This document shows, piece by piece, positions 1 through 14,669 of a stretch of 14,669 nucleotides of DNA (positions within the stretch are counted from its first letter, which is position 1; each line of letters opens with the position of its first letter). Under the pieces are notes generated by a model, which was given only the letters and a program-made list of their open reading frames with translations, made no database searches and was not told where the DNA came from. The translations under genes and the position numbers were made by a program. Source of the DNA: a virus. The DNA is taken from the UHGV virus genome UHGV-0214741; one strand, 5' to 3'.

Positions 1-16
1 CAGTACCCTTTTCCAT
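1..16 (-). CDS. cspD: 5' end of cold-shock-like protein CspD (partial, continues beyond window start)
   Basis: Reverse complement of 1-16 reads ATG GAA AAG GGT ACT G = M-E-K-G-T-(V), the CspD N-terminus as I recall it. The opposite flank carries clpS, the divergent neighbour of cspD in E. coli-type genomes. Only 5 codons are visible. Confidence 0.6.
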
Positions 17-236
17 GCTTCGACATCCTTCGCAAATCTTATACAAGTAAGATGGAATAAACCGGGGTCAGAGAGGGGGCTGTTCAAAACCTCGCCAACT
101 CTAGAAATACAATTTAGAGAATTAGGGCGAGCCGTCAAGCATTTGACAGGGGACAAGGGGCAGGTATGAATCAAAAATTTGAAGCAGTTAACGCTATTGA
201 CAGGAATGTGACAGATGTCGCTGATGCCAACGATAG

Positions 237-253
237 ATGATAGTTATTTATCA
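237..253. repeat. Candidate attL core (ATGATAGTTATTTATCA)
   Basis: Matches 14530-14546 at 16 of 17 positions; also an imperfect dyad (TGATAG-TTAT-YTATCA). Both copies are preceded by GCCAA a few bases upstream. Confidence 0.45.
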
Positions 254-257
254 GTTA

Positions 258-400
258 GTGTTCGCGGGTGTTCGTCGTGGTGTATCTATCTCATTTATTG
301 CTATGATTATAAAGGAAAATTTCGTTTTTCTTGTTCGCCCTTGTTCGTCGCTGTTTGCCCTTGTACGATGCACGGTGTAGTCAATGGTGTAGTTAATTTT
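258..400. repeat. Left arm repeat block: TTGTTCG-type 10 bp repeats (258-280 and a tandem array 331-370) followed by tandem 12 bp GGTGTAGTYAAT x2 (374-397)
   Basis: Seen directly: GTGTTCGCGG, GTGTTCGTCGTGG, then TTGTTCGCCC / TTGTTCGTCG / CTGTTTGCCC / TTGTACGATG as four consecutive 10 bp units, then ACGGTGTAGTCAATGGTGTAGTTAATTTT. The same architecture recurs at 14401-14461. Position next to int and att suggests arm-type recombinase or excisionase binding sites. Confidence 0.6.
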
Positions 401-411
401 GATGACCGGAA

Positions 412-1659
412 ATGCGAAACATGAGCAGGGCAATTCATAGACTTAGCGACACTCTTTTACGAAAATTAAGCGGATCACCAACCACAAAAAACACCTTTTT
501 TAATGATGGTGGCAACCTTAGCGTAAGGCATTCAACCAATGGCCTGTTAACCTGGTATTTCACTTACAGGGCCGGAACTGGCAGGCAGGTATCACCGGAA
601 CGCCTGAGACTGGGCAACTATCCCGATCTGAGCCTGAAAGCAGCCAGAGAAAAAGCGGCACAGTGTCGCGCCTGGCTGGCGGAGGGGAAAAATCCACGCC
701 ATGAGCTTAATCACACAGTGCAGGAAGCGTTAGCACCTGTAACGGTTAAGGACGCGATCACTTACTGGCTTGAGTCATACGCGAAGGAAAAGCGCACTGA
801 CCACGAATCACTGAAAAGCCGGATCAATAAGCACATAATCAGCCAGATTGGTGCTATGCCGCTGGATAAATGCGAGTTACGCCACTGGCTGGCCTGTTTT
901 GACCAGCTTGCTAAGCGTAATCCGGTATCAGCCGGCTTTTTGTTGCAGGTATGCAAGCAGGCGCTTAAGTACTGCCGTAAACGTCGCTACGCCGTCAGTA
1001 ACGTTCTTGATGATATGGTCGTAGGTGATGTGGGAAAAAAAGCAGAAATAAGCGAGCGAGTGCTAACAAACAAGGAGCTTGGCGAGCTACTCCGCGCACT
1101 GGATGAAAAAATTTTCCCGCCGTACTACAGCGCCTTAATTCGCCTTCTGATTGTCTTTGGATGCCGTACCACTGAGCTAAGACGCTCCGAGGTTCAGGAA
1201 TGGGATTTTAAAGAAATGCTCTGGACTGTGCCGAAAGAACACAGCAAAACGAAGGTAGCAATATTCAGGCCAATACCGGAAGCGATCTTGCCGTTTGTCA
1301 TGAAGCTGGTGGAGAAGAACAGGCACACGGGCTTATTGCTTGGAGAACTGAAAGGGCAATCATCCGTAGCAGAGTACGGAAGAACGGCACACAGACGCAT
1401 TAATCAAGCCCCCTGGTCGTTGCATGACATCCGGCACACATTTACAACCATGCTGAACGATTTAGGCGTGGATCCGCATATTGTCGAGCAGCTTACCGCC
1501 CACCAGATGCCGGGGATGCAACGAGTCTATAACCACTCCCGTTATCTTGATGCAAAACGTGATGCTCTTAATCTATGGGTAGACCGTCTCGAGCTTCTCC
1601 AGAACAATGATGAAAAAATCGTTGTTATGACCCCGCGAATTTACCCCCAAAATTCTTGA
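412..1659 (+). CDS. int: Tyrosine site-specific integrase, P4-type (N-terminal DUF4102-like arm-binding domain plus C-terminal catalytic domain)
   Basis: 415 aa ORF. The N-terminus (LSDTLLRKL...FFNDGGNLSV...GLLTWYFTYR...LRLGNYPDLSLKAAREKA) fits the P4-integrase arm-binding pattern. The C-terminus has HDIRHTF (HxxR box) and RVYNHSRY with the catalytic Tyr. Stop TGA at 1657-1659. Confidence 0.9.
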   Translation: MRNMSRAIHRLSDTLLRKLSGSPTTKNTFFNDGGNLSVRHSTNGLLTWYFTYRAGTGRQVSPERLRLGNYPDLSLKAAREKAAQCRAWLAEGKNPRHELNHTVQEALAPVTVKDAITYWLESYAKEKRTDHESLKSRINKHIISQIGAMPLDKCELRHWLACFDQLAKRNPVSAGFLLQVCKQALKYCRKRRYAVSNVLDDMVVGDVGKKAEISERVLTNKELGELLRALDEKIFPPYYSALIRLLIVFGCRTTELRRSEVQEWDFKEMLWTVPKEHSKTKVAIFRPIPEAILPFVMKLVEKNRHTGLLLGELKGQSSVAEYGRTAHRRINQAPWSLHDIRHTFTTMLNDLGVDPHIVEQLTAHQMPGMQRVYNHSRYLDAKRDALNLWVDRLELLQNNDEKIVVMTPRIYPQNS

Positions 1660-2078
1660 CAAATTACGGCTGTTTTTTCTTTAAGAGATTACAGCCGTGA
1701 ATAAATCGTAGAATATCGGAAAATATCTGCAAATATCTTCGCTTTATATATGTCAACCATCAAAAAATTGGAATGTCTTCTTCTGAACTTTTATTCTCTG
1801 TTTCTTGATTGTTCCAACACTTGATGGTTTATCTATTTGTTTTTAATGAGATAATTCAAGCGTAATGCCAAGTAACGACATTTTTTGTTGCATCGCTTAA
1901 AAACTCGTGACACGATTTTAAACACTAACGAGCTTCTACGAACCTTAGCGAACAAAGCCTTTAGCAAGGTTGTGTTTTTAATTTAAGAGGTGAAAAAAGA
2001 ATCTAAGTAATATCCGATCTCATATATCTACAGCTAAGAGAAAAGTTTATATACGTAATTTTTTATGTAGGTTTCTGT

Positions 2079-2288
2079 ATGCGTGAAATAAATGAAGATC
2101 GCGTAATCCGTGAGGATGAATGTCGTAAGTTAACTGGAGTGTGTCGCACTACACGCTATGAACTGGAGAAAAAAGGGAATTTCCCGTCACGCCGTAATCT
2201 GGGCGGTCGTTCTGTAGGTTGGCTGCTGTCCGAGGTTATGGAATGGGTTAAAAGCCGGGATCGCATTAATTCAGGCAAGGCAGCGTAA
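2079..2288 (+). CDS. alpA: AlpA-family phage transcriptional regulator / excisionase-like DNA-binding protein
   Basis: 69 aa; the segment CRKLTGVCRTTRYELEKKGNFPSRRNLGGRSVGWLLSEVMEWVKSR matches the AlpA (Phage_AlpA) helix-turn-helix pattern. It lies immediately downstream of int, as in P4-like elements and PICIs. Preceded by a roughly 420 bp AT-rich non-coding region. Confidence 0.8.
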   Translation: MREINEDRVIREDECRKLTGVCRTTRYELEKKGNFPSRRNLGGRSVGWLLSEVMEWVKSRDRINSGKAA

Positions 2289-2305
2289 AGGGGAGCATAT
2301 GACAT

Positions 2306-2335
2306 ATAAAACAAAGGCGACCGGGGGCGGTCGCC
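2306..2335 (-). terminator. Candidate rho-independent terminator for the minus-strand small-gene unit
   Basis: Perfect 8 bp stem GGCGACCG / CGGTCGCC with a 4 nt loop at 2316-2335. On the minus strand it is followed by TTTGTTTTAT (complement of 2306-2315). Confidence 0.45.
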
Positions 2336-2402
2336 AATGGATACACACTAAACTTGAACGCATCACCAACAATGCCACATTTGCGGCTGGTGGGCAATGT
2401 GA

Positions 2403-2591
2403 TCAGTCAGATTTGGTTCGTTCCAAGGTTTGCAACGAGAGCTTTTTCCTGTGCTCTTTAAGGAATTTCTCAAGAGCAAAAGCACATGGCGCGAATCTTT
2501 CTGATTCATGCTCTATCTTTCTGCGCCGTCTTTTCCGTGCCGGTGATAATGTTTTGGTCAATTCTTTATCGGTCATTGTGTTGTCCTGCAT
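2403..2591 (-). CDS. Hypothetical small basic protein (about 57-62 aa)
   Basis: ORF downstream of the RHH gene on the minus strand; highly charged (ARKRRRRKIEHESERF). No convincing SD before the first ATG; the second ATG (codon 6, MTDKEL) has AGGA 7 nt upstream. Could be spurious. Confidence 0.3.
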   Translation of the reverse strand: MQDNTMTDKELTKTLSPARKRRRRKIEHESERFAPCAFALEKFLKEHRKKLSLQTLERTKSD

Positions 2592-2633
2592 AGCAATGCG
2601 CCGTAGTTACTCACACCACGGCGCTGGTGATGG

Positions 2634-2813
2634 TTACTCCTGCTCTTTGGCCTTGCGGCGCTGGCGGCGTTTGATCTCGCCTTTAACGGCAGTAACTATA
2701 AATTGCGCCTTGCTTTCACCTTCATCTAAATTTTTTTCTAAGTCTGCAACAACATCATGCGGGAATCTGGCATTTAACTGTTGCGACTTATTATTTGTTG
2801 AACCTGTTGCCAT
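2634..2813 (-). CDS. Ribbon-helix-helix (Arc/MetJ-like) DNA-binding protein, candidate repressor of the replication operon
   Basis: 59 aa starting from the internal ATG at 2813-2811, which has GAGAGGA 8 nt upstream. MATGSTNNKSQQLNARFPHDVVADLEKNLDEGESKAQFIVTAVKGEIKRR fits the RHH beta-strand / helix / helix pattern (compare Arc FNLRWPREVLDLVRKVAEENGRSVNSEIYQRV). Transcribed divergently from the 3004 operon. Confidence 0.55.
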   Translation of the reverse strand: MATGSTNNKSQQLNARFPHDVVADLEKNLDEGESKAQFIVTAVKGEIKRRQRRKAKEQE

Positions 2814-2833
2814 TACTGAATCCTCTCTAAGTT

Positions 2834-2926
2834 GGTGCGATTCAGTATACACAAAAAAAATTTCAGAGAAAGGCTTGAAGTGCGATTCACTTGCTGATAG
2901 GTTAAAAACGAATGGTGCGATGCACC
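2834..2926. promoter_or_regulatory. Divergent promoter/operator region with three GTGCGAT(T/G)CA repeats
   Basis: GGTGCGATTCAG at 2834-2845, AGTGCGATTCAC at 2879-2890, GGTGCGATGCACC at 2914-2926 (the last is a perfect dyad GGTGC-GAT-GCACC). A TATACT -10-like hexamer on the minus strand overlaps the first site. Confidence 0.4.
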
Positions 2927-3003
2927 AAGCAACAACGCCCCGCAGTGGTGGCACACATGCAGGGCGTCTAACCACCAACGATAGCAACAGTATCGAGGCA
3001 GCT

Positions 3004-3207
3004 ATGAGAAATTATACCAGACACCCGCAAGGGCGGGACTCGTACAACCTGAATAAATACATCTGGCGTTTTATCGCCCTGAGCACGGCACAACCGCGCG
3101 TGATTACCATTGAGGCCACCAGCGAACAGGAAGCACGCCAGCAATCCCCGGCTGGCTACGTGATGGTATTCGCCGCCCGTATTCGTCAGGGGGTGTGCCA
3201 TGCCTGA
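3004..3207 (+). CDS. Hypothetical protein, first gene of the replication operon (67 aa)
   Basis: Internal ATG of the 2299-3207 ORF with GAGG 5 nt upstream; the C-terminal 67 aa have normal composition while the upstream 235 codons do not. The stop overlaps the next ATG (ATGCCTGA). Confidence 0.5.
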   Translation: MRNYTRHPQGRDSYNLNKYIWRFIALSTAQPRVITIEATSEQEARQQSPAGYVMVFAARIRQGVCHA

Positions 3208-3520
3208 TATGTCAAATTACCAGTACCTGATTAATCCGCATTTTAACTGTGAGCATGATATTGCTAAAAAGGTTTATTCCGCTGCTGATGGGGCTACTGA
3301 CAATATATCAATGGCTGTTGCGTCAATTGGTAGCCTGATGTGGCATGCGTCAGAAAATGAGGACTATGACGAAAAGGCCATGCGCATTGATATGGGTAAT
3401 ATCGGTTTGTTACTGGCAATGCTTGGGCAGTTTGATATTTCGTTACGGTGCACCATTGAAAATGCCACAGATGCATTAAATGCCATAAAGAAAGCGAATA
3501 CTGATTCAAATCGGGGATAA
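3200..3520 (+). CDS. Hypothetical protein (106 aa)
   Basis: ORF with GGGGG 6 nt upstream of the ATG, translationally coupled to the previous gene. Hand count of one 60-nt line gives about 40 percent G+C, lower than the downstream replication gene. Confidence 0.6.
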   Translation: MPDMSNYQYLINPHFNCEHDIAKKVYSAADGATDNISMAVASIGSLMWHASENEDYDEKAMRIDMGNIGLLLAMLGQFDISLRCTIENATDALNAIKKANTDSNRG

Positions 3521-3526
3521 ATAATC

Positions 3527-3826
3527 ATGAGAACATATTTATCTGGCTTGACTGCCAGCGGTTATGCACACCCCAAAATTATCCCCGGCGCTATTTATCT
3601 GGATAAGAACGGTAACAGAGTAACGGTAAAAGAACTGATGTTTGACCGTGTGTATTTTATTCGTGATGGCTATTCATTTCATAGTTCGCTGAACGTGGAG
3701 ATCTTTATTAGCAGATTCCGGCGGGAAATCCCGACTTCCAGAAATAACCATGTGTCACGTGTGGATGTGGATAAAAAACTGCAGGAACTGAAAAACATGA
3801 TTGCCGCGTGGAGAGAGCCGAAATGA
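3527..3826 (+). CDS. Hypothetical protein (99 aa)
   Basis: ORF with GGGGA 9 nt upstream of the ATG. Its stop TGA (3824-3826) overlaps the replication-protein ATG (3823-3825) as ATGA. Hand-counted lines give about 37-42 percent G+C. Confidence 0.6.
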   Translation: MRTYLSGLTASGYAHPKIIPGAIYLDKNGNRVTVKELMFDRVYFIRDGYSFHSSLNVEIFISRFRREIPTSRNNHVSRVDVDKKLQELKNMIAAWREPK

Positions 3827-5640
3827 AAAAAGCGCCAAATTTAAAACACCAGCCGCGTGACAAAATGACGGAAGTCATCATTTTTGCGGGTAGTGATGCG
3901 TGGGCACATGCGAAGCAGTGGCAGGAACAGGACGGGCGACTGGCTGGCGATAACGTGCCACCTGTCTGGCTTGGAGAGCAACAACTTGCCGAACTGGACA
4001 ACCTGCAAATCGTACCGGACGGACGCTATCGCGTGCGTCTCTACCAGGCGGGGTTATTGCGTCCGGGGCTTGTTAATACCATCGGGCAGAAACTGGCAGC
4101 GGCAGGTGTCAGGGATGCTGATTATTACCCTGAAGGAATGCACAGCCAGAAACGGGAGAACTGGCGCGAATATCTGGAACGTGAACGGGCAGAGCAGGCG
4201 GAAAAGAAAAAGGTAGTTGAACTGCCTGTAAAGAAAAAAGAGCGGGTAAAAGACGATAACGCTTCATCACTGGCGCTTAACCAGATGGGAGCAAGTCAAC
4301 GCGGCGAAGTTCTCCTGGCACATTATGGCGGTGAACTGGCGATTCATGCTGACTCTGACACTGTTCACCATTACAACGGCGTTGTATGGGAGCCAGTACA
4401 GGATAAAGAATTACAGCGAGCTATGGCACAGATTTTCATTGATGCGGAGATCAGCTATTCGCAGAACGCCATTAAATCGGCGGTCGATACCATGAAGTTA
4501 AGTTTGCCTGTTATGGGGAATACAGCCCGTAACCTGATTGGATTCAGTAACGGGGTATTTGATACCAGAACAGGTAATTTTCGGGAGCATAACAAAAACG
4601 ACTGGTTGTTAATTGCCAGTGAATTACCTTTCAGCCCACCAGCAGAGGGGGAAACGCTGGCAACACATGCGCCGAATTTCTGGAAGTGGTTACGCCGTTC
4701 GGTGGCTGAGAATGACCGCAAGGCGGATCGCGTACTGGCTGCATTATTCATGGTGCTGGCGAACCGGTACGACTGGCAGTTATTCATTGAGGTAACAGGT
4801 CCAGGGGGAAGTGGTAAAAGCGTGATGGCGGAGATTTGCACCATGCTGGCGGGTAAGGCCAACACAGTATCGGCAAGCATGAAGGCGCTGGAAGATGCAA
4901 GGGAACGCGCGTTAGTGGTTGGCTTTTCGCTGATTATCATGCCGGATATGACCCGCTACGCTGGTGATGGGGCAGGAATTAAGGCCATTACAGGCGGTGA
5001 CAAGGTGGCAATTGACCCGAAACACAAAGCCCCCTACTCAACGCGTATTCCGGCAGTAGTGCTGGCGGTTAACAATAACGCCATGTCATTCAGTGACCGC
5101 AGCGGGGGGATCTCACGTCGTCGGGTGATATTCAATTTTTCGGAAGTTGTACCGGAGAACGAACGCGATCCAATGCTGGCGGAAAAAATAGAAGGTGAGC
5201 TGGCGGTAGTGATTCGCCATCTGCTTACACGGTTTGCTGACCAGGACGAAGCCAGACGCCTGTTATATGAGCAGCAGAAATCTGAAGAAGCACTGGCGAT
5301 AAAGCGAGAGGGGGATTCGCTGGTGGACTTCTGCGGCTATCTCATGGCGTCGGTAATGTGTGATGGCCTGTTAGTGGGTAATGCTGAAATTGTGCCATTC
5401 AGCCCACGCAGGTATCTCTATCATGCCTATCTGGCTTATATGAGGGCACATGGGTTTGGTAAACCTGTAACACTGACGCGCTTCGGTAAAGATATGCCGG
5501 GGGCAATGGCGGAATATGGCAGGGAGTATATGAAACGGAAAACGAAGCACGGTTTGCGTTCAAACGTGACACTGACGGAGGAATCAGAAGACTGGATGCC
5601 ATCATGTGTATCGGTCACTAATGACGATAGCAAAAATTAA
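3823..5640 (+). CDS. Replication protein, phage/plasmid primase P4-family C-terminal domain with SF3-type NTPase (Walker A GPGGSGKS)
   Basis: The ORF track starts at GTG 3808, but ATG 3823 has GGAGAG upstream and an ATGA overlap with the preceding gene. Walker A VTGPGGSGKSV and a Walker-B-like hhhhPD (LIIMPD) are present. It lies immediately upstream of a TGTTCACC iteron array, as for P4 alpha and its ori. Confidence 0.85.
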   Translation: MKKAPNLKHQPRDKMTEVIIFAGSDAWAHAKQWQEQDGRLAGDNVPPVWLGEQQLAELDNLQIVPDGRYRVRLYQAGLLRPGLVNTIGQKLAAAGVRDADYYPEGMHSQKRENWREYLERERAEQAEKKKVVELPVKKKERVKDDNASSLALNQMGASQRGEVLLAHYGGELAIHADSDTVHHYNGVVWEPVQDKELQRAMAQIFIDAEISYSQNAIKSAVDTMKLSLPVMGNTARNLIGFSNGVFDTRTGNFREHNKNDWLLIASELPFSPPAEGETLATHAPNFWKWLRRSVAENDRKADRVLAALFMVLANRYDWQLFIEVTGPGGSGKSVMAEICTMLAGKANTVSASMKALEDARERALVVGFSLIIMPDMTRYAGDGAGIKAITGGDKVAIDPKHKAPYSTRIPAVVLAVNNNAMSFSDRSGGISRRRVIFNFSEVVPENERDPMLAEKIEGELAVVIRHLLTRFADQDEARRLLYEQQKSEEALAIKREGDSLVDFCGYLMASVMCDGLLVGNAEIVPFSPRRYLYHAYLAYMRAHGFGKPVTLTRFGKDMPGAMAEYGREYMKRKTKHGLRSNVTLTEESEDWMPSCVSVTNDDSKN

Positions 5641-5654
5641 ACTTATGGAATAAC

Positions 5655-5883
5655 TGTTCACCACTGTTCACCCTGTCATAAATATCTTTTGTATCAGTAT
5701 GTTATAGGGTGAACAGTTATTTATGAACTGTTCACCAAACTATTCACTGTTCACCTTTTTGATTGTTTATTGAGCTTCAAGGGTGAACAGTGGTGAACAG
5801 TTGGTGAATAGTTTTTGTGAAACTGTTCACCCCTTAACATTATGAATTAAAAGATAAAATATCAAAAGGTGAACAGGTGAAGG
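5655..5883. promoter_or_regulatory. Replication origin: array of TGTTCACC iterons in both orientations with AT-rich spacers
   Basis: Forward TGTTCACC at 5655, 5665, 5729, 5748, 5824. Reverse GGTGAACA at 5708, 5782, 5792, 5868. Degenerate copies at 5803 (GGTGAATA) and 5876 (GGTGAAGG). Several are at 10 bp phasing. TGTTCACC is the P4 ori/crr type I iteron as I recall it. Confidence 0.7.
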
Positions 5884-8870: not shown

Positions 8871-8892
8871 AGGAGGCTGCGGCCTCCTTTTT
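8871..8892 (+). terminator. Intra-operon rho-independent terminator/attenuator after the capsid gene
   Basis: AGGAGGC / GCCTCCT stem (8871-8877 / 8882-8888) with TGCG loop, followed by a T-run through 8892. It sits 13 nt after the capsid stop and before the protease SD (GGAG 8902-8905). Confidence 0.6.
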
Positions 8893-8912
8893 CAGCTTTA
8901 TGGAGTACACCG

Positions 8913-9473: not shown

Positions 9474-9474
9474 T

Positions 9475-10689
9475 ATGTGGTGGCCTTTTAGTCGTAAAAA
9501 AAGCGAGCAGCGTAACCTGTCCATTGATGATTTTCTGGCGCTGTCCGGCGTACCGAATACCGGATCCGGAGAATATGTTTCTGCCGGGACGGCTGAATCA
9601 TTGCCTGCAGTGATGAATGCGGTTTCTGTCATCGCTGAGGCGGTGGCCACGATGCCGTGTTATCTGTATCTGGTACGTAATGACAAGGGCAGGGAGGCGC
9701 GGGAATGGCTGGACAGTCACCCAGTAGATATTCTGCTGAATGAGCAGCCTAATTCGTGCCAGACACCTTACCAGTTTAAACGCACAATGATGCGTCACTG
9801 CCTGCTAAACGGTAACGCCTATGCGGTTATTGAGTGGGGGCAGGACGGGCAGCCAAAATCACTTCATCCTTATGCGCCGGGGTGTGTTGTACCGGAACGC
9901 ACAGGCGCACACAAATACCGCTATACCATCACCGAACCCTGTACAGGAACGGTGCGCACGTATTTACAGGAAGAAGTTTTGCATCTCCGCTATGCCTCGG
10001 ATGATGGCTTTCTGGGGCGTTCCCCCGTCACGATTTGCCGTGAGGCGCTGGGGCTTGGCCTTGCTCAACAGCGTCACGGAGCCAGCATTATGAAAGATGG
10101 CATGATGGCGGCAGGGATTATCACGTCAGGCGAATGGCTGGACGGCGTGAAAGGTAAACAGGCATTGGATGCTCTGGAACGCTACAAGGGGGCGAAAAAT
10201 GCCGGAAAAACGCCAATCCTTGAAGGGGGCATGGATTACAGGCAACTGGGAATGAGTAACCAGGATGCGGAATGGCTGGCCTCCCGTCGCTTCTCCATTG
10301 AAGACATCGCCCGCATGTTCAACGTATCGCCTATTTTTCTGCAGGAATACAGCAACAGCACCTACAGCAATTTCAGCGAGGCAAGCCGCGCGTTTCTGAC
10401 CATGACAATGCGCCCGTGGCTGGCGAACTTCGAACAGCAAATCAAGGCCGCTTTGCTGGTGGCTTCTCCCGTACCTGGTACCCGTTATCTGGTTGAGTTT
10501 GATTCAGCCGATTTATTACGCGCCACACCCACCGAACGTTATGCCACGTATGAGAAAGGGATTAAGAACGGGATCATGAATCCGAACGAAGCCCGTGAGC
10601 GTGAGGGTATGCCGCCGCGTGAAGGTGGTGATGAGTTCAGCCAGGCATGGAAACAGACTGTGGAAATTAAAGGGAGAAAAGATGAGTGA
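9475..10689 (+). CDS. Portal protein, HK97 family
   Basis: The ORF track starts at 9385 inside the protease gene. ATG 9475 (MWWPFSRKK...) begins 1 nt after the protease stop and is the more likely start. About 404 aa, with length and position typical of HK97-type portals. Confidence 0.85.
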   Translation: MWWPFSRKKSEQRNLSIDDFLALSGVPNTGSGEYVSAGTAESLPAVMNAVSVIAEAVATMPCYLYLVRNDKGREAREWLDSHPVDILLNEQPNSCQTPYQFKRTMMRHCLLNGNAYAVIEWGQDGQPKSLHPYAPGCVVPERTGAHKYRYTITEPCTGTVRTYLQEEVLHLRYASDDGFLGRSPVTICREALGLGLAQQRHGASIMKDGMMAAGIITSGEWLDGVKGKQALDALERYKGAKNAGKTPILEGGMDYRQLGMSNQDAEWLASRRFSIEDIARMFNVSPIFLQEYSNSTYSNFSEASRAFLTMTMRPWLANFEQQIKAALLVASPVPGTRYLVEFDSADLLRATPTERYATYEKGIKNGIMNPNEAREREGMPPREGGDEFSQAWKQTVEIKGRKDE

Positions 10690-10984
10690 AGCCAGAATTA
10701 CACCTGATGAAGTCAGGGCACATCTTCGACTTGATGATGATTTATCCGGTGAAGGCGAACTTCTGAAAATGTATACCGATGCGGCGCTGGAAGCCTGCCA
10801 GAAGCATATCGGGAAACGTTTTGAAGACGGGCTGGAATTTACCCCGGCAATGCGTGTTGGTTGCCTGATGTACATCGCTTTCCTGTACGAGAACCGGGAA
10901 GCGGTTTCACCAGTGGAGCACTCGGAACTGCCTATGGCTATTTCTGCGCTCTGGTCAGTTTATCGTGACGTAGGGGTGTACTGA
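10682..10984 (+). CDS. Head-tail connector (gp6-like head-tail adaptor) protein
   Basis: The ORF track begins at 10595, but ATG 10682 has GGGAG 5 nt upstream and overlaps the portal stop. MSEARITPDEVRAHLRLDDD...GELLKMYTDAALEACQKHIGKR fits the gp6-like connector pattern. About 100 aa. Confidence 0.7.
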   Translation: MSEARITPDEVRAHLRLDDDLSGEGELLKMYTDAALEACQKHIGKRFEDGLEFTPAMRVGCLMYIAFLYENREAVSPVEHSELPMAISALWSVYRDVGVY

Positions 10985-11424
10985 TGCCGTGGCAACCATT
11001 AAGGCGATGCACTGAGCCTGGCTGTAATAAGCGCGTGAAGTCCGGCAAGTGTGAAGAGCACAGGCGGGCTGCATGGCGTGCAGAGGATGCCAGACGGGGA
11101 CACCGCCGCGCGCGCGGGTATTCCCGACAGTGGGACAAATACCGCGCCCTGTACCTGAGCAAAAACCCGTTATGCGTGCGTTGTCTGGCTAAGGGGATTT
11201 ATACGCCAGCTCTTGTGGTGGATCACATCATTCCCATCAATGGCGGCGGTGATGTTCTCTTCTGGCCTGAGTGGAATCACCAGGCATTGTGCCAGACGTG
11301 CCACAACCGTAAGACGACACGAGAAGATCCAGCCACGAAAGCAAACCGTAAAGCGGGCATGTATCGCGAGCAGGAAGAACGGGCGGCACACCGTAACGAC
11401 TGGATGTATGGCGATGATGACTGA
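10984..11424 (+). CDS. HNH endonuclease (packaging-associated, terminase partner)
   Basis: 146 aa; Cys-rich N-terminus (CTEPGCNKRVKSGKCEEH) and HNH core VVDHIIPINGGGD ... WNHQALCQTCHNRKT. Its ATG overlaps the connector stop (TGATG). Position immediately upstream of terS is the usual one for HNH-dependent cos packaging. Confidence 0.85.
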   Translation: MPWQPLRRCTEPGCNKRVKSGKCEEHRRAAWRAEDARRGHRRARGYSRQWDKYRALYLSKNPLCVRCLAKGIYTPALVVDHIIPINGGGDVLFWPEWNHQALCQTCHNRKTTREDPATKANRKAGMYREQEERAAHRNDWMYGDDD

Positions 11425-11600
11425 ACAGGAGCAAACCAGGCTGATACGTGGACTGATAAGGCAGCGTGACACATGGAAGACACAGGAGACAGAGCACAAA
11501 GCCAACAGGACAGGGCGCACAAAACGCACCACAGCGAAGCGATTAACCGACCGTGACCGCGAGGTCATGGAATGTTTTCGCAATCGCTGGTGAGGCCGTC

Positions 11601-11700
11601 AGAGGGGGTGGGGGTGGTTTTCAGGACGAAACCGTCCCTGCCGGACACCGACCGCCCCCTCAAATTTTTGTGCACGGTAATTTTTTTGAAAATAATTGGG
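11601..11700. other. Candidate cos / terminase recognition region: GC-rich dyad element followed by an AT-rich tract, directly upstream of terS
   Basis: GAGGGGGTGG (11602-11611) pairs with CCGCCCCCTC (11652-11661) with one mismatch; nested GGACG-AAAC-CGTCC hairpin (11624-11637); then AAATTTTTG...TTTTTTTGAAAATAATT. Functional assignment is by position only. Confidence 0.3.
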
Positions 11701-11712
11701 CGAAAAAAGAAC

Positions 11713-12069
11713 ATGGCAAGACCACCAAAAGCCCCCGCTTACCTGGATGAAATCGCGGTCAGGCAGTGGAAGGAAAAATCGCGCCAGCTTTCCGGGCGGG
11801 AAGACCTTACCCCCGCCGACTGGAGCAATCTGGAACTGTATTGCGTTAACTACTCTATATACCGCAAAGCCGTCGAAGACCTTGCGACGCGCGGGTTCAG
11901 CATTGTTAACAGTCAGGGCAGCGAGAGCAGAAACCCCGCACTGAGCGCAAAGGCTGACGCAGAAAGAATAATGATCAAAATGGCTTCTTTGCTGGGTTTT
12001 GACCCGGTAAGCCGTCGCAGAAATCCACCGGAAACAGAGGAAGAGGACGAACTTGACCGCCTGGCATGA
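11713..12069 (+). CDS. terS: Terminase small subunit, P27-family-like
   Basis: The ORF track starts at 11572, but the recognisable protein begins at ATG 11713 (MARPPKAPAYLDEIAVRQWKEK...), a typical P27-type TerS N-terminus. About 118 aa. Confidence 0.8.
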   Translation: MARPPKAPAYLDEIAVRQWKEKSRQLSGREDLTPADWSNLELYCVNYSIYRKAVEDLATRGFSIVNSQGSESRNPALSAKADAERIMIKMASLLGFDPVSRRRNPPETEEEDELDRLA

Positions 12070-13714
12070 GTACGCAGAAGGCGTAAAAAACGGCAAAATT
12101 ACGGCCTGTAAACGACTGAAACAGGCTGTTAAACGGTATTTTTCTGACCTTGAAAACTCCCTTTACACGTTCGATCCGGAGGTCGTGGAGCGGTTTATTG
12201 CCTTTTCCCGGGTGTGCCCGCACGTAAAAGGCGCAATGCGCGGTAGCCCCATTGAACTTGAGCCGTGGCAGCAGTTCGCCTTTGCCTGCATCCTGGGATT
12301 TAAGGTTAAGGCCACCGGACGGCGCAAATACACCAGCGCATTCATTGAAGTACCGCGAAAAAATGCCAAATCCACGGTCGCCGCTATCCTGGCTAACTGG
12401 TTTCTGGTTATGGAAAACGGGCAGCAGGATATTTACACCGCCGCCGTGAGTCGTGATCAGGCGCGGATCGTGTTTGATGATGCGCGTCAGATGTGCCTTT
12501 TATCCCGACCGTTACGAAAGCGGGTAAATATTCAGGCGCACAAGGTGATACACCCGAAAACCAACAGCCTGTTAAAGCCACTGGCAGCAAAAGCGGCAAC
12601 CATTGAGGGGACAAACCCGAGTCTTGCCATTGTGGATGAATATCACCTGCACCCAGACAACGGGGTTTATTCCGCACTTGAACTGGGGATGGGGGCGCGT
12701 CCGGAGGGGCTGTTATTTGCCATCACCACATCGGGGAGCAACGTTGTTTCAGCCTGTAAACAACACTACGACTATTGCTGCCAGATACTGGATGGTGAAG
12801 AGGTGAACGAATCCATGTTCGTACTGATTTACGAGCTGGATGATGAAAGCGAGGTTGACGATCCGGCGATGTGGATAAAGGCGAATCCCAATATCGATGT
12901 TTCCGTCGATCGTGAAAAACTGGCCTCAACCATCCAGAAAGCGCGGGGTATTCCGTCGCAGTGGGTGGAAATGCTCACCAAGCGATTCAATATCTGGTGT
13001 CAGGGGGCTACGCCGTGGATGGGTAACGGTGCATGGGCGGAGTGCGCCGGAACGTTCGCTGAGGCGGATTTATACGGGCAGGAGTGCTATGCGGGGCTGG
13101 ACTTATCATCAACCAGCGATATTTCCAGCGTGTGCTATGCCTTTCCGGTCGGTAAAAAGATTATGCTGGTTTCACGTCACTATCTACCGGAATTTCAGCT
13201 ACAGAACCCTGCCAATAAAAACCGCGCCATCTATCGCCAGTGGGCAAAGGCGGGCTGGATACGCACAACACCGGGTGACTGCATTGATTATGACCGTATC
13301 CGTGATGACATCATGGCGGATGCAGAGAATTTCAATATCAGGCTGGTGGGTTTCGATACATGGAACGCCACGCACCTGAGGACGCAGCTACAGGGAGCGG
13401 GATTTGAGGTGGAGCCGTTCCCGCAAACGTACCTTCGTTTTAGTCCGGCGGCGAAATCGTTCGAAGTTTTTGTTAACCGGAAGGTGATTGTTCATCGTGG
13501 TGATCCGGTGCTGGCCTGGTCAATGAGTAATGTTGTGATGCAGAGTGACGCGAACGCCAATATCAAGCCGAACAAGAAAAAATCATCCAATAAGATAGAC
13601 CCGAGCGTTGCGGCGCTGATGGCGTTTGGCACATTCCAGGCTGAGCATGAGGAATTTGCATTTGATATGAGCGACAGCCAGAAAGAGCGACTTGCGGCAT
13701 TTGATGGGGTATGA
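12053..13714 (+). CDS. terL: Terminase large subunit (Terminase_1-like ATPase/nuclease)
   Basis: 553 aa. The ORF opens with TTG at 12053, preceded by AGAGGA 5 nt upstream; there is no in-frame ATG nearby. It overlaps the terS 3' end. Size and position fit TerL; VPRKNAKST is a Walker-A-like motif. The exact start is uncertain. Confidence 0.85.
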   Translation: MTAWHEYAEGVKNGKITACKRLKQAVKRYFSDLENSLYTFDPEVVERFIAFSRVCPHVKGAMRGSPIELEPWQQFAFACILGFKVKATGRRKYTSAFIEVPRKNAKSTVAAILANWFLVMENGQQDIYTAAVSRDQARIVFDDARQMCLLSRPLRKRVNIQAHKVIHPKTNSLLKPLAAKAATIEGTNPSLAIVDEYHLHPDNGVYSALELGMGARPEGLLFAITTSGSNVVSACKQHYDYCCQILDGEEVNESMFVLIYELDDESEVDDPAMWIKANPNIDVSVDREKLASTIQKARGIPSQWVEMLTKRFNIWCQGATPWMGNGAWAECAGTFAEADLYGQECYAGLDLSSTSDISSVCYAFPVGKKIMLVSRHYLPEFQLQNPANKNRAIYRQWAKAGWIRTTPGDCIDYDRIRDDIMADAENFNIRLVGFDTWNATHLRTQLQGAGFEVEPFPQTYLRFSPAAKSFEVFVNRKVIVHRGDPVLAWSMSNVVMQSDANANIKPNKKKSSNKIDPSVAALMAFGTFQAEHEEFAFDMSDSQKERLAAFDGV

Positions 13715-14001
13715 CGAGAATGACTGAAACTGATCTACTAAAAATAATTCGCCGCATTACCGGAATCAGTCAGCAGCCTGACGAACAGGCTACACAGCCG
13801 GACAGCGTGATAGCCGAAAATTACGCGCGTGTGGTGGCTGAGGTAATGCGCCGTGACGGTATTGAGCTTAACGGCGTGGATATGCGCAACATACGAACCA
13901 GAGTTCTTGAGTTGCTGGCATACCGTCGCCGTTCTCAACAACGGAGGGAGAGCGCGAAAAATACTTACCAGTGGAGGAAGCCGGAGCACTTACGGCGGTA
14001 A
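13711..14001 (+). CDS. Hypothetical protein (96 aa), translationally coupled to terL
   Basis: Its ATG overlaps the terL stop (ATGA at 13711-13714). Arg-rich C-terminus. Last gene of the packaging operon; function unknown. Confidence 0.5.
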   Translation: MTRMTETDLLKIIRRITGISQQPDEQATQPDSVIAENYARVVAEVMRRDGIELNGVDMRNIRTRVLELLAYRRRSQQRRESAKNTYQWRKPEHLRR

Positions 14002-14020
14002 CTGGTTGATATTACCGAAA

Positions 14021-14226
14021 GTGCAAAAATGCACTTAGCAACTGGTGGCGAGTTGCAGATCTGCAACTCGACTATGAAACTACCCGTAGTTTGGGTAGTA
14101 AGAGTAACACCCAGATTTTGGGGCTTACTCGCGATACCCAAATAAAGGGTATCGGTGTAAGAAATATCGTTTCTCATATGTGAGCACCGAGGGCGGAATT
14201 CCGCCTTCGGTTACTTATTGTGCTCA
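14021..14226. repeat. Non-coding cluster of perfect and near-perfect palindromes / stem-loops
   Basis: GTGCA-AAAA-TGCAC (14021-14034); perfect 18 bp palindrome AGTTGCAGATCTGCAACT (14051-14068); ACTACCC-N7-GGGTAGT (14079-14099); GATACCC-N7-GGGTATC (14133-14153); perfect 14 bp GGCGGAATTCCGCC (14192-14205) inside a 24 bp near-palindrome (14187-14210), itself flanked by TGAGCAC (14181-14187) and GTGCTCA (14220-14226). Confidence 0.5.
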
Positions 14227-14400
14227 TGCACAGGGAGGGGCGGGTCAAATCTCTGTACCCTGACGTCTTCCGGACTGCCAGCCCCATCGATTTTTTATAC
14301 CCGCGAAAAATGAAAAACGCTTCACGCTGGTGGGCCTGATGCCGATAACTGGTTTCATGACTGATAGCCGGAAAATGATAACGATTAAAGCGTGTTGATC

Positions 14401-14461
14401 TTTGTTCGTGGTTGTTCGATATTGTTCGTGGAACGGTGTAGTTAATGGTGTAGTTAATTTT
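14401..14461. repeat. Right arm repeat block: TTGTTCG repeats x3 followed by tandem GGTGTAGTTAAT x2
   Basis: TTTGTTCGTGG (14401-14411), TTGTTCGAT (14412-14420), ATTGTTCGTGG (14421-14431), then ACGGTGTAGTTAATGGTGTAGTTAATTTT (14433-14461). This 29-mer matches 372-400 with one mismatch. Confidence 0.6.
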
Positions 14462-14529
14462 ACTGTTTTTGACGAGCTTATTGTTTGCAACTCAATGAAA
14501 AATAAAGGCTAATAAGCCAAATGCTATAA

Positions 14530-14546
14530 ATGATAGTTATCTATCA
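14530..14546. repeat. Candidate attR core (ATGATAGTTATCTATCA)
   Basis: Direct repeat of 237-253 with one mismatch; a perfect dyad TGATAG-TTAT-CTATCA. Confidence 0.45.
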
Positions 14547-14631
14547 TGTGGAGTAGATTGGTCAGGCAAATAAGCTCTTGTCAGCGGCAGGGCGTTCTGC
14601 CGATAACCGTAACCGAAGATGATAACTGACA

Positions 14632-14669
14632 ATGGGTAAAACGAACGACTGGCTGGACTTTGATCAACT
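14632..14669 (+). CDS. clpS: 5' end of ClpS, the ClpAP adaptor protein (partial, runs off window end)
   Basis: ATG GGT AAA ACG AAC GAC TGG CTG GAC TTT GAT CAA = MGKTNDWLDFDQ, which matches the E. coli ClpS N-terminus as I recall it. Confidence 0.8.
   Translation, partial: MGKTNDWLDFDQ

What the first reader, a model, noticed from the sequence alone, without database searches (positions are those of the whole stretch)
1..14669. Insertion in the cspD-clpS intergenic region, with two competing att boundaries
The flanks read as the cspD start (minus) and the clpS start (plus), so the element is inserted between two divergent stress/proteolysis genes. Two direct-repeat pairs could mark the junctions: a 17-mer (237-253 / 14530-14546) and a 29-mer (372-400 / 14433-14461). 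Removing everything between the 17-mers leaves about 322 bp between the two start codons, which is close to the native spacer length I recall for E. coli K-12 (about 0.3 kb; unverified here). The 29-mer gives about 550 bp. I therefore favour the 17-mer as core and read the 29-mer plus TTGTTCG arrays as element-borne arm sequence. The insertion also replaces much of the native sequence upstream of clpS-clpA, which could change clpS expression.
Basis: partly seen in the sequence, partly recalled or inferred. Interest (0 to 1): 0.5.

Follow-up and report, generated by a model that had tools for sequence, protein, structure and literature searches.

The report
Phage satellite at known cspD-clpS site
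The window is a 14.3-kb capsid-forming phage satellite (cf-PICI) inserted at an already published E. coli attachment site between cspD and clpS; the shorter repeat marks the true junction, and the longer repeat belongs to the satellite's own recombination arms.

Summary
Both flanks align to E. coli K-12. Left homology ends at 253 and right homology resumes at 14526. Removing one repeat-to-repeat unit (14,293 bp) restores exactly the 322-bp K-12 cspD-clpS spacer. The exact identity is 11 bp, ATGATAGTTAT (237-247 / 14530-14540). This is the core already published for PICIs at cspD-clpS (Fillol-Salom 2018, Table S1). It overlaps the stop codon of the small gene yljB, which stays intact.

The 29-mer and the TTGTTCG arrays are absent from K-12 and are carried by the element. 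Relatives at other sites have the same arm layout: about four phased heptamers, then two tandem 12-mers, in both arms. The 12-mers change together with the integrase's N-terminal arm-binding domain, so I infer they are Int arm-type sites. The heptamers contain the GTTCG motif of TorI excisionase sites. They recur upstream of alpA and of the capsid operon, so I infer they are AlpA sites.

The cargo (capsid, protease, portal, adaptor, HNH, TerS, TerL; no tail or lysis genes) marks a cf-PICI. No native DNA is replaced. Any effect on clpS is untested. This is ordinary and largely already known.

The parts
1..16 (-). 5' end of cspD (start codon is the complement of 14-16)
   Evidence: Identical to MG1655 cspD. 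Annotated as cspD in the near-identical locus L002.
166..240 (+). yljB small-protein gene (24 codons). Its TGA stop (238-240) lies inside the att core. The gene is intact.
   Evidence: Coordinates transferred from MG1655 b4770. Annotated intact next to the integrase gene in L002 and L091.
233..253 (.). attL. The exact core is ATGATAGTTAT at 237-247, with an inferred 7-bp overlap GATAGTT at 239-245. G236 comes from attB and T248 from attP.
   Evidence: K-12 alignment ends at 253 with a mismatch at 248. The 11-mer is the published att core. The overlap is inferred from the family alignment.
258..275 (+). Core-proximal pair of GTGTTCG heptamers in 10-bp phase (P' arm)
   Evidence: Conserved in L024, L031 and L091.
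330..367 (+). P'-arm array of four phased heptamers (CTTGTTCG, CTTGTTCG, CTGTTTG, CTTGTACG). Inferred AlpA/RDF sites.
   Evidence: The layout is conserved across Int classes. TorI sites have the GTTCG motif.
374..397 (+). P'-arm tandem 12-mers GGTGTAGTCAAT and GGTGTAGTTAAT, ending 23 bp before the int ATG. Inferred Int arm-type sites.
   Evidence: The 12-mers co-vary with the Int N-terminal domain.
412..1659 (+). Tyrosine integrase. The longest ORF starts at 412. The PGAP start in relatives corresponds to 421.
   Evidence: Pfam Arm-DNA-bind_3 plus Phage_integrase. 94.4% identical to the EcCIIHE3034 Int.
1929..1955 (-). Three phased G(T/C)TCG units upstream of alpA, on the opposite strand. Inferred AlpA autoregulatory sites.
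   Evidence: The second AlpA type (~60% identical, 'AlpA-2') has 4-6 phased TTGTTSN units at the equivalent place in its elements. AlpA activates PalpA (PMC6092414).
2079..2288 (+). alpA: master activator and putative excisionase (RDF)
   Evidence: Pfam Phage_AlpA. PHROG 2790, 'excisionase and transcriptional regulator'. The closest solved structure is the GIsul2 excisionase 8C3T.
2299..3207 (+). 302-aa ORF in the variable region downstream of alpA
   Evidence: No Pfam hit. The C-terminal 88 aa match PHROG 6196.
3200..5640 (+). Replication module: a 106-aa ORF, a DUF4222 protein (3527-3826) and a D5-type primase/helicase (3808-5640)
5652..5878 (.). Putative replication origin: about 11 copies of the iteron ACTGTTCACC in both orientations
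   Evidence: The position just 3' of the primase gene is typical of PICIs (PMC6092414).
5928..6860 (+). 81-aa ORF, SSB (6170-6595) and 98-aa ORF
6896..7402 (-). 168-aa ORF of unknown function. It is the only minus-strand gene in the element.
   Evidence: PHROG 5789 (unknown function). No PADLOC hit.
7469..7539 (+). Three phased heptamers (7469-7495), then a promoter-like site TTTACA-16-TATGTT (7512-7539), upstream of the capsid operon
   Evidence: Conserved in the cf-PICIs L003, L005 and L006.
7689..14001 (+). Packaging operon: HK97-type capsid (7689-8858), S78 protease (8913-9473), portal (to 10689), head-tail adaptor (to 10984), HNH (10984-11424), TerS (to 12069), TerL (12053-13714) and a 96-aa ORF
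   Evidence: Pfam and PHROG hits. RefSeq annotation of L002.
14186..14211 (+). Terminator-like GC-rich hairpin after the packaging operon
14392..14428 (+). P-arm phased heptamers (GTGTTGA, TTGTTCG x3)
14435..14458 (+). P-arm tandem 12-mers GGTGTAGTTAAT x2
14526..14546 (.). attR. The exact core is ATGATAGTTAT at 14530-14540. A14529 comes from attP and C14541 from attB.
   Evidence: K-12 alignment resumes at 14526 with a mismatch at 14529. Published core.
14632..14669 (+). 5' end of clpS

Best explanation
The window holds one intact capsid-forming phage-inducible chromosomal island (cf-PICI), 14,293 bp from core to core. Its P4-type tyrosine integrase inserted it at the known E. coli PICI attachment site between cspD and clpS.

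Strand exchange occurred inside the 11-bp identity ATGATAGTTAT. It probably used a 7-bp overlap, GATAGTT, flanked by imperfect inverted core-type half-sites. The core overlaps the stop codon of yljB. No host DNA was lost.

The '29-mer plus TTGTTCG' module is not a junction. It is a roughly 69-bp recombination-arm module present once in each arm (P and P'), in direct orientation.

- The two tandem 12-mers are the arm-type sites read by the integrase's N-terminal Arm-DNA-binding domain.
- The 10-bp-phased (T)TGTTCG heptamers are most likely sites for AlpA, acting as excisionase (RDF).
- Similar phased arrays upstream of alpA and upstream of the capsid operon suggest that AlpA uses the same motif to activate its own gene and the packaging genes.

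Under this model, helper-phage-induced AlpA would couple excision to capsid and packaging expression.

Shown here: the junctions, the core, the identity of the element, the arm architecture, and its co-variation with the Int N-domain. Inferred: which protein binds the heptamers, the 7-bp overlap, and any regulation.
For: Junction:
- K-12 homology ends at 253 and resumes at 14526. The flanking mismatches are hybrid (G...T at attL, A...C at attR, G...C in attB), which places the crossover within 237-247.
- The restored spacer is 322 bp, equal to K-12.
- ATGATAGTTAT at cspD-clpS is the published core of EcCIIHE3034 and EcCI18098. The published EcCIIHE3034 coordinates coincide with the two cores in L091. 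Its Int is 94.4% and its AlpA 98.6% identical to the window's.
- The site is uninterrupted in 5057 of 5426 genomes and split in about 368. This integrase, at 90% nucleotide identity or more, occurs in 366 genomes.
- The metagenome contig L024 carries the predicted attP-type junction ATAAATGATAGTTATTTATCA between a P arm and a P' arm.

Element identity:
- Pfam and PHROG annotation.
- The cf-PICI description in bioRxiv 10.1101/2022.09.08.507074.

Arms:
- All 24 related loci that retain a left arm have the layout heptamers, then 2x 12-mer, then 23-24 bp (37 bp in SMS-3-5), then int. The 12-mers reappear at the far end in all 12 loci that extend that far.
- The same 12-mer serves three different cores: cspD-clpS, roxA-phoQ and allE-allC.
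- The L074 class carries GGTGTAGTCACT in both arms. Its Int is 78% identical to the L004 class over the first 100 aa and 95.5% identical over the rest. Its AlpA and heptamers are unchanged.
- SMS-3-5 has a third 12-mer, a 60%-identical N-domain, and the same AlpA type and heptamers as the window.

Heptamers:
- TorI RDF sites on KplE1 attL are GTTCG, GATCG and GTCCG (PMC2951348).
- The closest solved relative of AlpA is an excisionase.
- AlpA is required for int-dependent excision and activates PalpA (PMC6092414).
- Arrays lie upstream of alpA and upstream of the capsid operon, next to a promoter-like site.
Against: - No binding or excision experiment exists for this element.
- The AlpA assignment rests on about three independent lineages and on analogy with TorI.
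- TorI itself is only a weak structural match (rank 34) and gave no sequence match.
- Int type and AlpA type are largely linked in the data set. The dissociation therefore depends on SMS-3-5 and on the L074 class.
- Heptamers at the capsid-operon promoter of AlpA-2 elements mix G, C and A at the seventh position, so the correlation between seventh base and AlpA type is loose.
- In PICMI, AlpA did not change transcription (PMC10803314). In EcCICFT073, AlpA did not affect Pint.
- The ori iterons (ACTGTTCACC) share TGTTC with the heptamers, which leaves a small chance that a replication protein is involved. Against that, arm heptamers are the same in L004 (RepA helicase) and L006 (primase).
Confidence: 0.85

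Rival explanations
1. The 29-mer pair (372-400 / 14433-14461) is the true att core and the native spacer is about 554 bp. The 17-mer would then be a coincidental or secondary repeat.
For: It is the longer repeat, 28/29 identical and part of a 69-nt repeat at 78%. For some PICIs the published 'att core' is in fact such a tandem repeat.
Against: - The K-12 spacer is 322 bp and lacks the 12-mers and TTGTTCG.
- The sequences 254-371 and 14462-14525 have no K-12 counterpart.
- The same 12-mers flank elements at roxA-phoQ and allE-allC, which have different cores.
- The published core for this site is the 11-mer.
Confidence: 0.01
2. The binding assignments are reversed or shared. Under this rival, the phased heptamers are the Int arm-type sites. 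The tandem 12-mers would then bind AlpA, or a host factor such as a response regulator that reads direct repeats.
For: - Phased direct repeats are also typical of Int arm sites.
- Int and AlpA types are mostly linked.
- The heptamer's seventh base differs between the two Int/AlpA lineages.
Against: - The 12-mer changes exactly where only the Int N-terminal domain changes, while AlpA stays 95-98% identical.
- Heptamer arrays also occur at two promoters with no 12-mer nearby.
- The heptamers contain the TorI-type GTTCG motif.
- A host factor of fixed specificity would not explain three 12-mer variants that change concertedly in both arms.
Confidence: 0.12
3. The element is a fixed, immobile remnant. 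The repeats would be relics of a past integration and no longer function.
For: No excision data exist for this copy. Only 2 of 5426 genomes carry this exact mosaic at 97% coverage or more.
Against: - All ORFs of the int, alpA, replication and packaging modules are full length.
- Both arms and both cores are intact.
- The same cargo is found at another att site with another int module at 98.9% identity, which implies recent mobility.
- Relatives occur as an attP-type junction and as a circular contig in viromes.
Confidence: 0.08
4. It is a small temperate prophage or a P4-like satellite rather than a PICI.
For: It encodes its own capsid, portal and terminase, and a P4-family integrase with AlpA/Vis-like and D5-type primase genes.
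Against: - There are no tail, lysis or CI-type repressor genes in 14.3 kb.
- No Sid, Psu or Delta homologue was detected.
- Gene order, unidirectional transcription and the att site match PICIs and cf-PICIs.
Confidence: 0.03

Closest known systems
EcCIIHE3034 and EcCI18098, classical E. coli PICIs at cspD-clpS (Fillol-Salom et al. 2018, ISME J, PMC6092414, Table S1)
   Same: Same att site and the same 11-bp core, ATGATAGTTAT. The Int is 94.4% and the AlpA 98.6% identical. The P and P' arms have the same structure.
   Different: EcCIIHE3034 is 10.5 kb. It carries the classical PICI late module (lambda-type capsid and decoration homologues, and TerS) rather than a full HK97-type capsid, portal and terminase operon.
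cf-PICIs, prototype EcCIEDL933 (Alqurainy et al., bioRxiv 10.1101/2022.09.08.507074). The SMS-3-5 element (NC_010498.1) is the nearest cargo relative.
   Same: The gene set is int, alpA, primase, SSB, capsid, protease, portal, adaptor, HNH, TerS and TerL, with no tails. Window 2096-14347 is 98.9% identical to the SMS-3-5 element.
   Different: The int module and both arms differ. SMS-3-5 sits between rcnR and thiM, has a 67%-identical Int and uses a different 12-mer. The window's element combines that cargo with the cspD-clpS int/att module.
KplE1 (CPS-53) IntS/TorI recombination module (Panis et al. 2010, PLoS Genet, PMC2951348)
   Same: The integrase gene abuts attL, so Int arm-type sites and RDF sites overlap the int upstream region. 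The RDF sites are short GTTCG-type motifs in closely spaced blocks. RDF expression is uncoupled from int.
   Different: - The proteins are different. TorI was not detected by sequence.
- The documented TorI sites are on attL, whereas here the heptamer module is in both arms.
- Here the motif also occurs at putative promoters.
- Nothing has been tested experimentally for this element.
Lambda Int/Xis attP (heterobivalent integrase paradigm)
   Same: A core with a 7-bp overlap flanked by inverted core-type sites. Arm-type sites are read by a separate N-terminal domain. Phased RDF sites are present.
   Different: The integrases are unrelated apart from the shared tyrosine-recombinase family. The arm module is duplicated in direct orientation in both arms. 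The RDF gene is not co-transcribed with int.

Membership tests
Gram-negative PICI (criteria of Fillol-Salom 2018) | int, alpA and pri-rep/ori in conserved order, transcribed rightward | tested here: met
   int 412-1659, alpA 2079-2288, primase 3808-5640 and iterons 5652-5878 are all on the + strand.
Gram-negative PICI (criteria of Fillol-Salom 2018) | A dedicated att site, not used by prophages | tested here: met
   The core ATGATAGTTAT at cspD-clpS is listed as a PICI attC. All 31 IMG/VR loci with this Int are 6-15 kb PICI-like elements. I did not survey every occupied genome for prophages.
Gram-negative PICI (criteria of Fillol-Salom 2018) | Size about 10-15 kb, with no lysis or tail genes | tested here: met
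   14,293 bp. Pfam and PHROG scans of all ORFs of 60 aa or more found no tail, holin or endolysin families.
Gram-negative PICI (criteria of Fillol-Salom 2018) | Helper-phage-dependent induction through AlpA and high-frequency transfer | not testable with these tools
   Needs induction and transduction experiments.
cf-PICI (Alqurainy et al.) | Encodes its own capsid, protease, portal, head-tail connector/adaptor, HNH, TerS and TerL | tested here: met
   Pfam: Phage_capsid, Peptidase_S78, Phage_portal, Phage_connect_1, HNH, Terminase_4, TerL_ATPase and TerL_nuclease. Only one adaptor gene is recognised. A separate head-closure gene, as in L005, is not annotated.
cf-PICI (Alqurainy et al.) | Forms its own small capsids and borrows only helper tails | not testable with these tools
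   Needs electron microscopy and genetics.
P4-like satellite | Sid, Psu and Delta capsid-size and transactivation genes, cnr and plasmid maintenance | tested here: not met
   No such Pfam or PHROG families among the ORFs. Only the integrase, AlpA and primase families are shared.
Heterobivalent tyrosine-integrase att system (lambda / KplE1 type) | A core shared by attL, attR and attB, with the crossover inside it | tested here: met
   Hybrid mismatch pattern around the 11-bp identity. An attP-type junction occurs in L024.
Heterobivalent tyrosine-integrase att system (lambda / KplE1 type) | Arm-type sites recognised by the N-terminal domain | tested here: inconclusive
   An Arm-DNA-bind_3 domain is present. 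The tandem 12-mers co-vary with that domain in three classes. There is no binding assay.
Heterobivalent tyrosine-integrase att system (lambda / KplE1 type) | RDF binding sites in the arms | tested here: inconclusive
   The phased heptamers contain the GTTCG motif reported for TorI. AlpA is excisionase-like. There is no binding assay.
Heterobivalent tyrosine-integrase att system (lambda / KplE1 type) | IHF or another host bending-factor site | not tested
   Not searched.

The most novel reading that the evidence does not exclude
One short motif, 10-bp-phased (T)TGTTCG, may serve as a common AlpA operator. It occurs in both recombination arms, upstream of alpA and upstream of the capsid operon. 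A single helper-induced protein would then trigger excision, its own amplification and late-gene expression together in cf-PICIs. In parallel, the integrases of this family appear to be modular. Arm-binding domains and their matching tandem 12-mers swap as a unit, independently of core specificity. As a by-product, the tandem arm repeats seem to be listed as the 'att core' for some published PICIs (the yejM/proL group). This suggests those boundaries need revising.
Probability: 0.5. Interest if true: 0.4.

Novelty: already known. Interest (0 to 1): 0.2.

Why it matters
The question the finding posed now has a definite answer. The short repeat is the junction and the long repeat is arm sequence. 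The site and core were published in 2018 and the element family in 2022-23, so the insertion itself adds little.

Three things are useful beyond that.

- There is a practical rule for annotating PICI boundaries. The longest terminal direct repeat is usually the arm module (heptamers plus tandem 12-mers), not the crossover. At least one published att assignment appears to have fallen into this trap.
- There is a testable map of putative Int and AlpA sites for a satellite family whose induction switch (AlpA) has no defined DNA target in the papers I read.
- The insertion leaves cspD, yljB and clpS intact but separates yljB and 237 bp of upstream sequence from clpS. About 7% of E. coli genomes have this site interrupted, and most of them carry this integrase type.

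Tried and rejected
- **The 29-mer as core.** Rejected by the K-12 alignment.
- **Integrase relatives in GTDB genomes.** The single-protein query returned only 2 loci. I used E. coli RefSeq and IMG/VR instead.
- **IMG/VR prophage calls.** Most are cut at the int start and lack the left arm. Only 18 of those 80 loci were usable for arm analysis.
- **Strict array detector.** A search for three or more TTGTTC units with at most 1 mismatch found only the P-arm array. I replaced it with phased-pair counting.
- **Seventh base of the heptamer as an AlpA-type marker.** It holds in the arms but not at the capsid-operon promoter, so I do not rely on it.
- **Rep or primase as the heptamer reader** (TGTTC is shared with the ori iterons). 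Rejected because the arm heptamers are the same in elements with different replication modules (L004 RepA versus L006 primase).
- **Rfam and tRNA scans of the window.** Nothing found. The site is not a tRNA or a known RNA gene.
- **PADLOC on accessory ORFs.** No defence system found.
- **Literature on a clpS promoter in the spacer.** Nothing usable. Consensus scans found no plus-strand sigma-70-like site in either the native or the occupied spacer.
- **cf-PICI supplement (list of att sites).** Not held.
- **ED1a record.** Not in the collection. I used ATCC 25922 instead.
- **Single-sequence AlphaFold model of AlpA.** Only pLDDT 66, so the fold matches are supportive rather than decisive.

Full report
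**1. Observation**

The window begins inside cspD and ends inside clpS. The cspD start codon is the complement of 14-16 and the clpS ATG is at 14632.

- The 17-mer pair is 16/17 identical. It extends to a 21-mer with two mismatches, 233-253 / 14526-14546 (family D16).
- The exact shared block is 11 bp, ATGATAGTTAT, at 237-247 and 14530-14540. It occurs exactly twice in the window, against 0.01 expected.
- The 29-mer pair is 28/29 identical. It forms the 3' end of a 69-nt direct repeat at 78% identity, 332-400 / 14393-14461 (D2).
- TTGTTCG occurs 9 times against 2.5 expected. TGTTCG pairs in helical phase (about 10 or 20 bp apart) number 6 against 0.003 in simulations. All are on the + strand, at 259/269, 332/342, 7470/7490 and 14403/14413/14423.
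- GGTGTAGTTAAT is present as two tandem copies in each arm.

**2. Which repeat is the junction**

I fetched the MG1655 cspD-clpS region, locus L001. The K-12 spacer between the two start codons is 322 bp.

- Window 1-253 aligns to K-12 with one mismatch, T248 versus C.
- Window 14526-14669 aligns with one mismatch, A14529 versus G.
- Nothing between 254 and 14525 has a K-12 counterpart.
- K-12 has no GGTGTAGTTAAT-like sequence and no TTGTTCG in the spacer.

The three sites read as follows.

| Site | Sequence |
|---|---|
| attB (K-12) | ATAG-ATGATAGTTAT-CTATCA |
| attL | ATAG-ATGATAGTTAT-TTATCA |
| attR | ATAA-ATGATAGTTAT-CTATCA |

Each junction is a hybrid, so the crossover lies within the 11-bp identity and attP is predicted to be ATAA-ATGATAGTTAT-TTATCA. 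Removing one repeat-to-repeat unit (14,293 bp) from the 14,615 bp between the start codons leaves 322 bp, exactly the K-12 value. Using the 29-mer instead leaves 554 bp.

The literature agrees. Table S1 of Fillol-Salom et al. 2018 (PMC6092414) lists ATGATAGTTAT at cspD-clpS as the att core of the PICIs EcCIIHE3034 and EcCI18098. In IHE3034 (locus L091) the published element coordinates coincide with the two copies of this 11-mer. Its integrase is 94.4% and its AlpA 98.6% identical to the window's, and its arms align along their full length.

A metagenome contig (L024, IMGVR_UViG_3300019373_000108) begins with a P arm joined to a P' arm through exactly the predicted attP sequence. It ends in attR plus clpS. 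This is either a tandem array or a mix of circular and integrated forms.

Across 5,426 complete E. coli genomes the empty site is uninterrupted in 5,057 and split in about 368. This integrase, at 90% nucleotide identity or more, is found in 366 genomes.

**3. What the core overlaps**

In K-12 the small gene yljB (b4770) occupies the equivalent of window 166-240. Its TGA stop (238-240) lies inside the core. attL reproduces the native sequence through position 247, so yljB stays intact. It is annotated intact beside the integrase gene in occupied genomes.

No host sequence is lost. 237 bp of the spacer remain next to cspD. 85 bp plus the repeat remain next to clpS. The weaker point stands: element DNA, beginning with a terminator-like hairpin at 14186-14211, now lies upstream of the last ~100 native bp before clpS. 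Consensus scans found no plus-strand sigma-70-like site in either the native or the occupied spacer. I found no usable literature on the clpS promoter. The expression question stays open.

**4. What the element is**

The ORFs, all on the + strand except one, are listed below.

| Coordinates | Product |
|---|---|
| 412/421-1659 | Tyrosine integrase with an N-terminal Arm-DNA-bind_3 domain |
| 2079-2288 | AlpA |
| 2299-3207 | Variable 302-aa ORF |
| 3527-3826 | DUF4222 protein |
| 3808-5640 | D5-type primase/helicase |
| 6170-6595 | SSB |
| 6896-7402 (minus strand) | 168-aa unknown |
| 7689-14001 | HK97-type capsid, S78 prohead protease, portal, head-tail adaptor, HNH endonuclease, TerS, TerL and a 96-aa ORF |

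An iteron field of about 11 ACTGTTCACC units at 5652-5878, just after the primase gene, is a likely origin. There are no tail, lysis or repressor genes. There is no tRNA and no Rfam family.

This is the gene set and order of the capsid-forming PICIs described with EcCIEDL933 as prototype (bioRxiv 10.1101/2022.09.08.507074). That paper reports that cf-PICIs use six E. coli attB sites, four of them shared with classical PICIs.

The element is a mosaic.

- Window 2096-14347 is 98.9% identical to a cf-PICI in strain SMS-3-5 and many others. That element sits between rcnR and thiM and has a different integrase.
- The int module and both arms (1-2095 and 14348-end) are of the cspD-clpS type.
- Only two genomes carry the whole combination at 97% coverage or more.
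- Among 31 IMG/VR elements with this integrase, only 4 carry the capsid and portal genes. The rest look like classical PICIs.

**5. What the 29-mer and the TTGTTCG arrays are**

I compared arms from elements at four other sites:

- roxA-phoQ (L004, L005), the site and core (GGACATATTT) of EcCICFT073;
- allE-allC (L006);
- rcnR-thiM (L003);
- further IMG/VR loci, including a circular 11.1-kb contig (L074).

All 24 loci that retain a left arm show the same layout. About four heptamers at 10-11 bp spacing are followed by two tandem 12-mers, and the int start codon comes 23-24 bp later (37 bp in SMS-3-5). The same 12-mers reappear at the far end in all 12 loci that extend that far. The 69-nt repeat is therefore a conserved arm module of the family, not a junction.

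*12-mers.* There are three variants.

| 12-mer | Where it occurs |
|---|---|
| GGTGTAGTYAAT | Elements with three different cores (cspD-clpS, roxA-phoQ, allE-allC) |
| GGTGTAGTCACT | The L074 class, in both arms |
| GTGTGGTCAGTT | SMS-3-5, in both arms |

The L074-class integrase is 95.5% identical to the L004 class after residue 100 but only 78% identical in the first 100 residues, which form the Arm-DNA-binding domain. Its AlpA (95-98% identical) and its heptamers are unchanged. The SMS-3-5 integrase has a 60%-identical N-domain and a third 12-mer, but the same AlpA type and heptamers as the window. The 12-mers thus follow the integrase N-domain and not the core or AlpA. I infer they are the arm-type sites.

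*Heptamers.* Several observations point to AlpA.

- For the KplE1 prophage, whose integrase gene likewise abuts attL, the TorI excisionase binds blocks of GTTCG, GATCG and GTCCG motifs that overlap the integrase promoter (PMC2951348). The heptamer (T)TGTTCG contains that motif.
- The window's AlpA matches Pfam Phage_AlpA and PHROG 2790, 'excisionase and transcriptional regulator'.
- Its only PDB relative by sequence is the GIsul2 excisionase 8C3T, which is also the best fold match of a modest model (pLDDT 66). RdfS and, weakly, TorI follow.
- Published work shows that AlpA is needed for int-dependent excision, that it does not act through Pint, and that it activates its own promoter and downstream genes (PMC6092414 section 14; PMC11773190).
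- AlpA overexpression drives EcCIEDL933 reproduction.
- In PICMIs, AlpA behaves as an excisionase with a TorI/Xis-like fold (PMC10803314).

The phased arrays occur where these functions predict them:

- in both arms, plus a core-proximal pair at 258-275;
- upstream of alpA, as three G(T/C)TCG units on the minus strand at 1929-1955; elements with the second AlpA type (~60% identical, here called AlpA-2) have 4-6 units at the equivalent place;
- upstream of the capsid operon at 7469-7495, 17 bp before a TTTACA-16-TATGTT promoter-like site, conserved in the cf-PICIs L003, L005 and L006.

I therefore propose that AlpA reads the heptamers both as RDF and as activator. This rests on inference from about three lineages and on analogy, with no binding data. 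I put it at about 0.55-0.6.

**6. Core geometry (inferred)**

Aligning predicted attP cores on the conserved P' sequence TTTATCA-TTAGTG gives the following.

| Element | C half-site | Overlap | C' half-site |
|---|---|---|---|
| L004 | TGATAAAA | GGACATA | TTTTATCA |
| L006 | TTATAGAT | ATATCCC | TTTTATCA |
| Window | CTATAAAT | GATAGTT | ATTTATCA |

In each case the 7-bp centre falls inside the attL/attR identity block. This suggests a 7-bp overlap, GATAGTT (239-245 / 14532-14538).

**7. Comparison with known systems and novelty**

The att site and core are published (2018), and so is the cf-PICI family (2022-23). Near-identical copies of the element are in RefSeq. The finding is therefore already known in kind and in site. 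The element is one more mosaic of known modules. It meets every membership criterion for PICI and cf-PICI that sequence alone can test. It fails the P4-like criteria (no Sid, Psu or Delta) and the prophage criteria.

The arm-site map and the proposed AlpA operator were not described in the papers I could read. They are modest extensions and still hypotheses.

**8. By-products**

- For the PICIs at yejM-luxR (EcCIATCC25922, EcCIED1a), the 'att core' printed in Table S1 closely matches a tandem 12-mer, TTTAGTTATACG x2, that lies inside both arms of the ATCC 25922 element. The K-12 comparison places the real junction at the 3' end of tRNA-Pro proL.
- The SMS-3-5-type cf-PICI integrates inside the thiM TPP riboswitch aptamer. 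The copy left in front of thiM scores 35 bits against a gathering score of 54.

**9. Verdict**

Interest is low at 0.2. The most novel reading not excluded is a shared AlpA operator together with modular arm-domain/12-mer swapping, at about 0.5 probability and moderate interest if true.

Noticed in passing
window 166-240 (+): The att core overlaps the stop codon of the 24-codon gene yljB. Integration regenerates the gene intact but moves it 14.3 kb away from clpS, which it precedes by 98 bp in K-12.
   Followed up: partly
window 5652-5878: A dense field of about 11 copies of the 10-mer ACTGTTCACC/GGTGAACAGT in both orientations lies immediately after the primase gene. It is a likely replication origin.
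   Followed up: partly
window 7469-7539: Three phased TTGTTCG-type heptamers sit 17 bp upstream of a promoter-like TTTACA-16-TATGTT site, ahead of the capsid operon. The arrangement is conserved in cf-PICIs with different int and AlpA types (L003, L005, L006).
   Followed up: partly
window 1929-1955 (-); L004 21399-21450; L006 21334-21370: Phased G(T/C)TCG or TTGTTSN units lie on the opposite strand between int and alpA. They are a candidate for the published AlpA autoactivation site.
   Followed up: partly
window 2299-3207 (+): A 302-aa ORF lies in the variable slot downstream of alpA. Only its last 88 aa match a PHROG ('transcriptional repressor', Icd-like region). In relatives this slot holds a pseudogene, a YlcI/YnfO gene on the other strand and a short Icd-like gene.
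   Followed up: partly
window 6896-7402 (-): This is the only minus-strand gene of the element (168 aa, PHROG 5789, unknown function, no PADLOC hit). It sits in the accessory slot before the packaging operon, where defence genes are expected in cf-PICIs.
   Followed up: partly
window 14001-14347: About 350 bp of non-coding DNA after the last packaging gene is shared at about 99% with the SMS-3-5 element and contains a strong hairpin (14186-14211). It may hold the cos site or a terminator. I did not analyse it.
   Followed up: no
L024 1-110 and 10470-10780 (IMGVR_UViG_3300019373_000108): A metagenome contig of a classical PICI with this integrase starts with an attP-type junction (P arm, ATAAATGATAGTTATTTATCA, P' arm). 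It ends with attR plus clpS. This implies either a tandem array or co-assembly of excised and integrated forms.
   Followed up: partly
L074 (IMGVR_UViG_3300045988_152974, 11,098 nt): A contig with a 119-nt terminal overlap, so presumably circular, holds a related PICI with a complete attP. Its 12-mers are GGTGTAGTCACT in both arms. Its integrase differs from the roxA-phoQ class almost only in the first 100 residues.
   Followed up: yes
L090 1604-1621, ~1752-1776, ~13009-13033, 13085-13103 (E. coli ATCC 25922, NZ_CP009072.1): The 'att site core' published for EcCIATCC25922 and EcCIED1a (yejM-luxR) closely matches a tandem 12-mer inside both arms. The K-12 comparison puts the real junction at the 3' end of tRNA-Pro proL. 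The left arm also has two inverted copies of the 12-mer.
   Followed up: partly
L003 1560-1607 and 16713-16795 (E. coli SMS-3-5): The SMS-3-5-type cf-PICI is inserted inside the thiM TPP riboswitch aptamer (core AGAAATACCCGTAT). The copy left upstream of thiM has element DNA in place of its 5' half. It scores 35 bits against the Rfam gathering score of 54.
   Followed up: partly
L003 3011-3865: The SMS-3-5 element has an extra DUF6387 gene between int and alpA that the window's element lacks.
   Followed up: no
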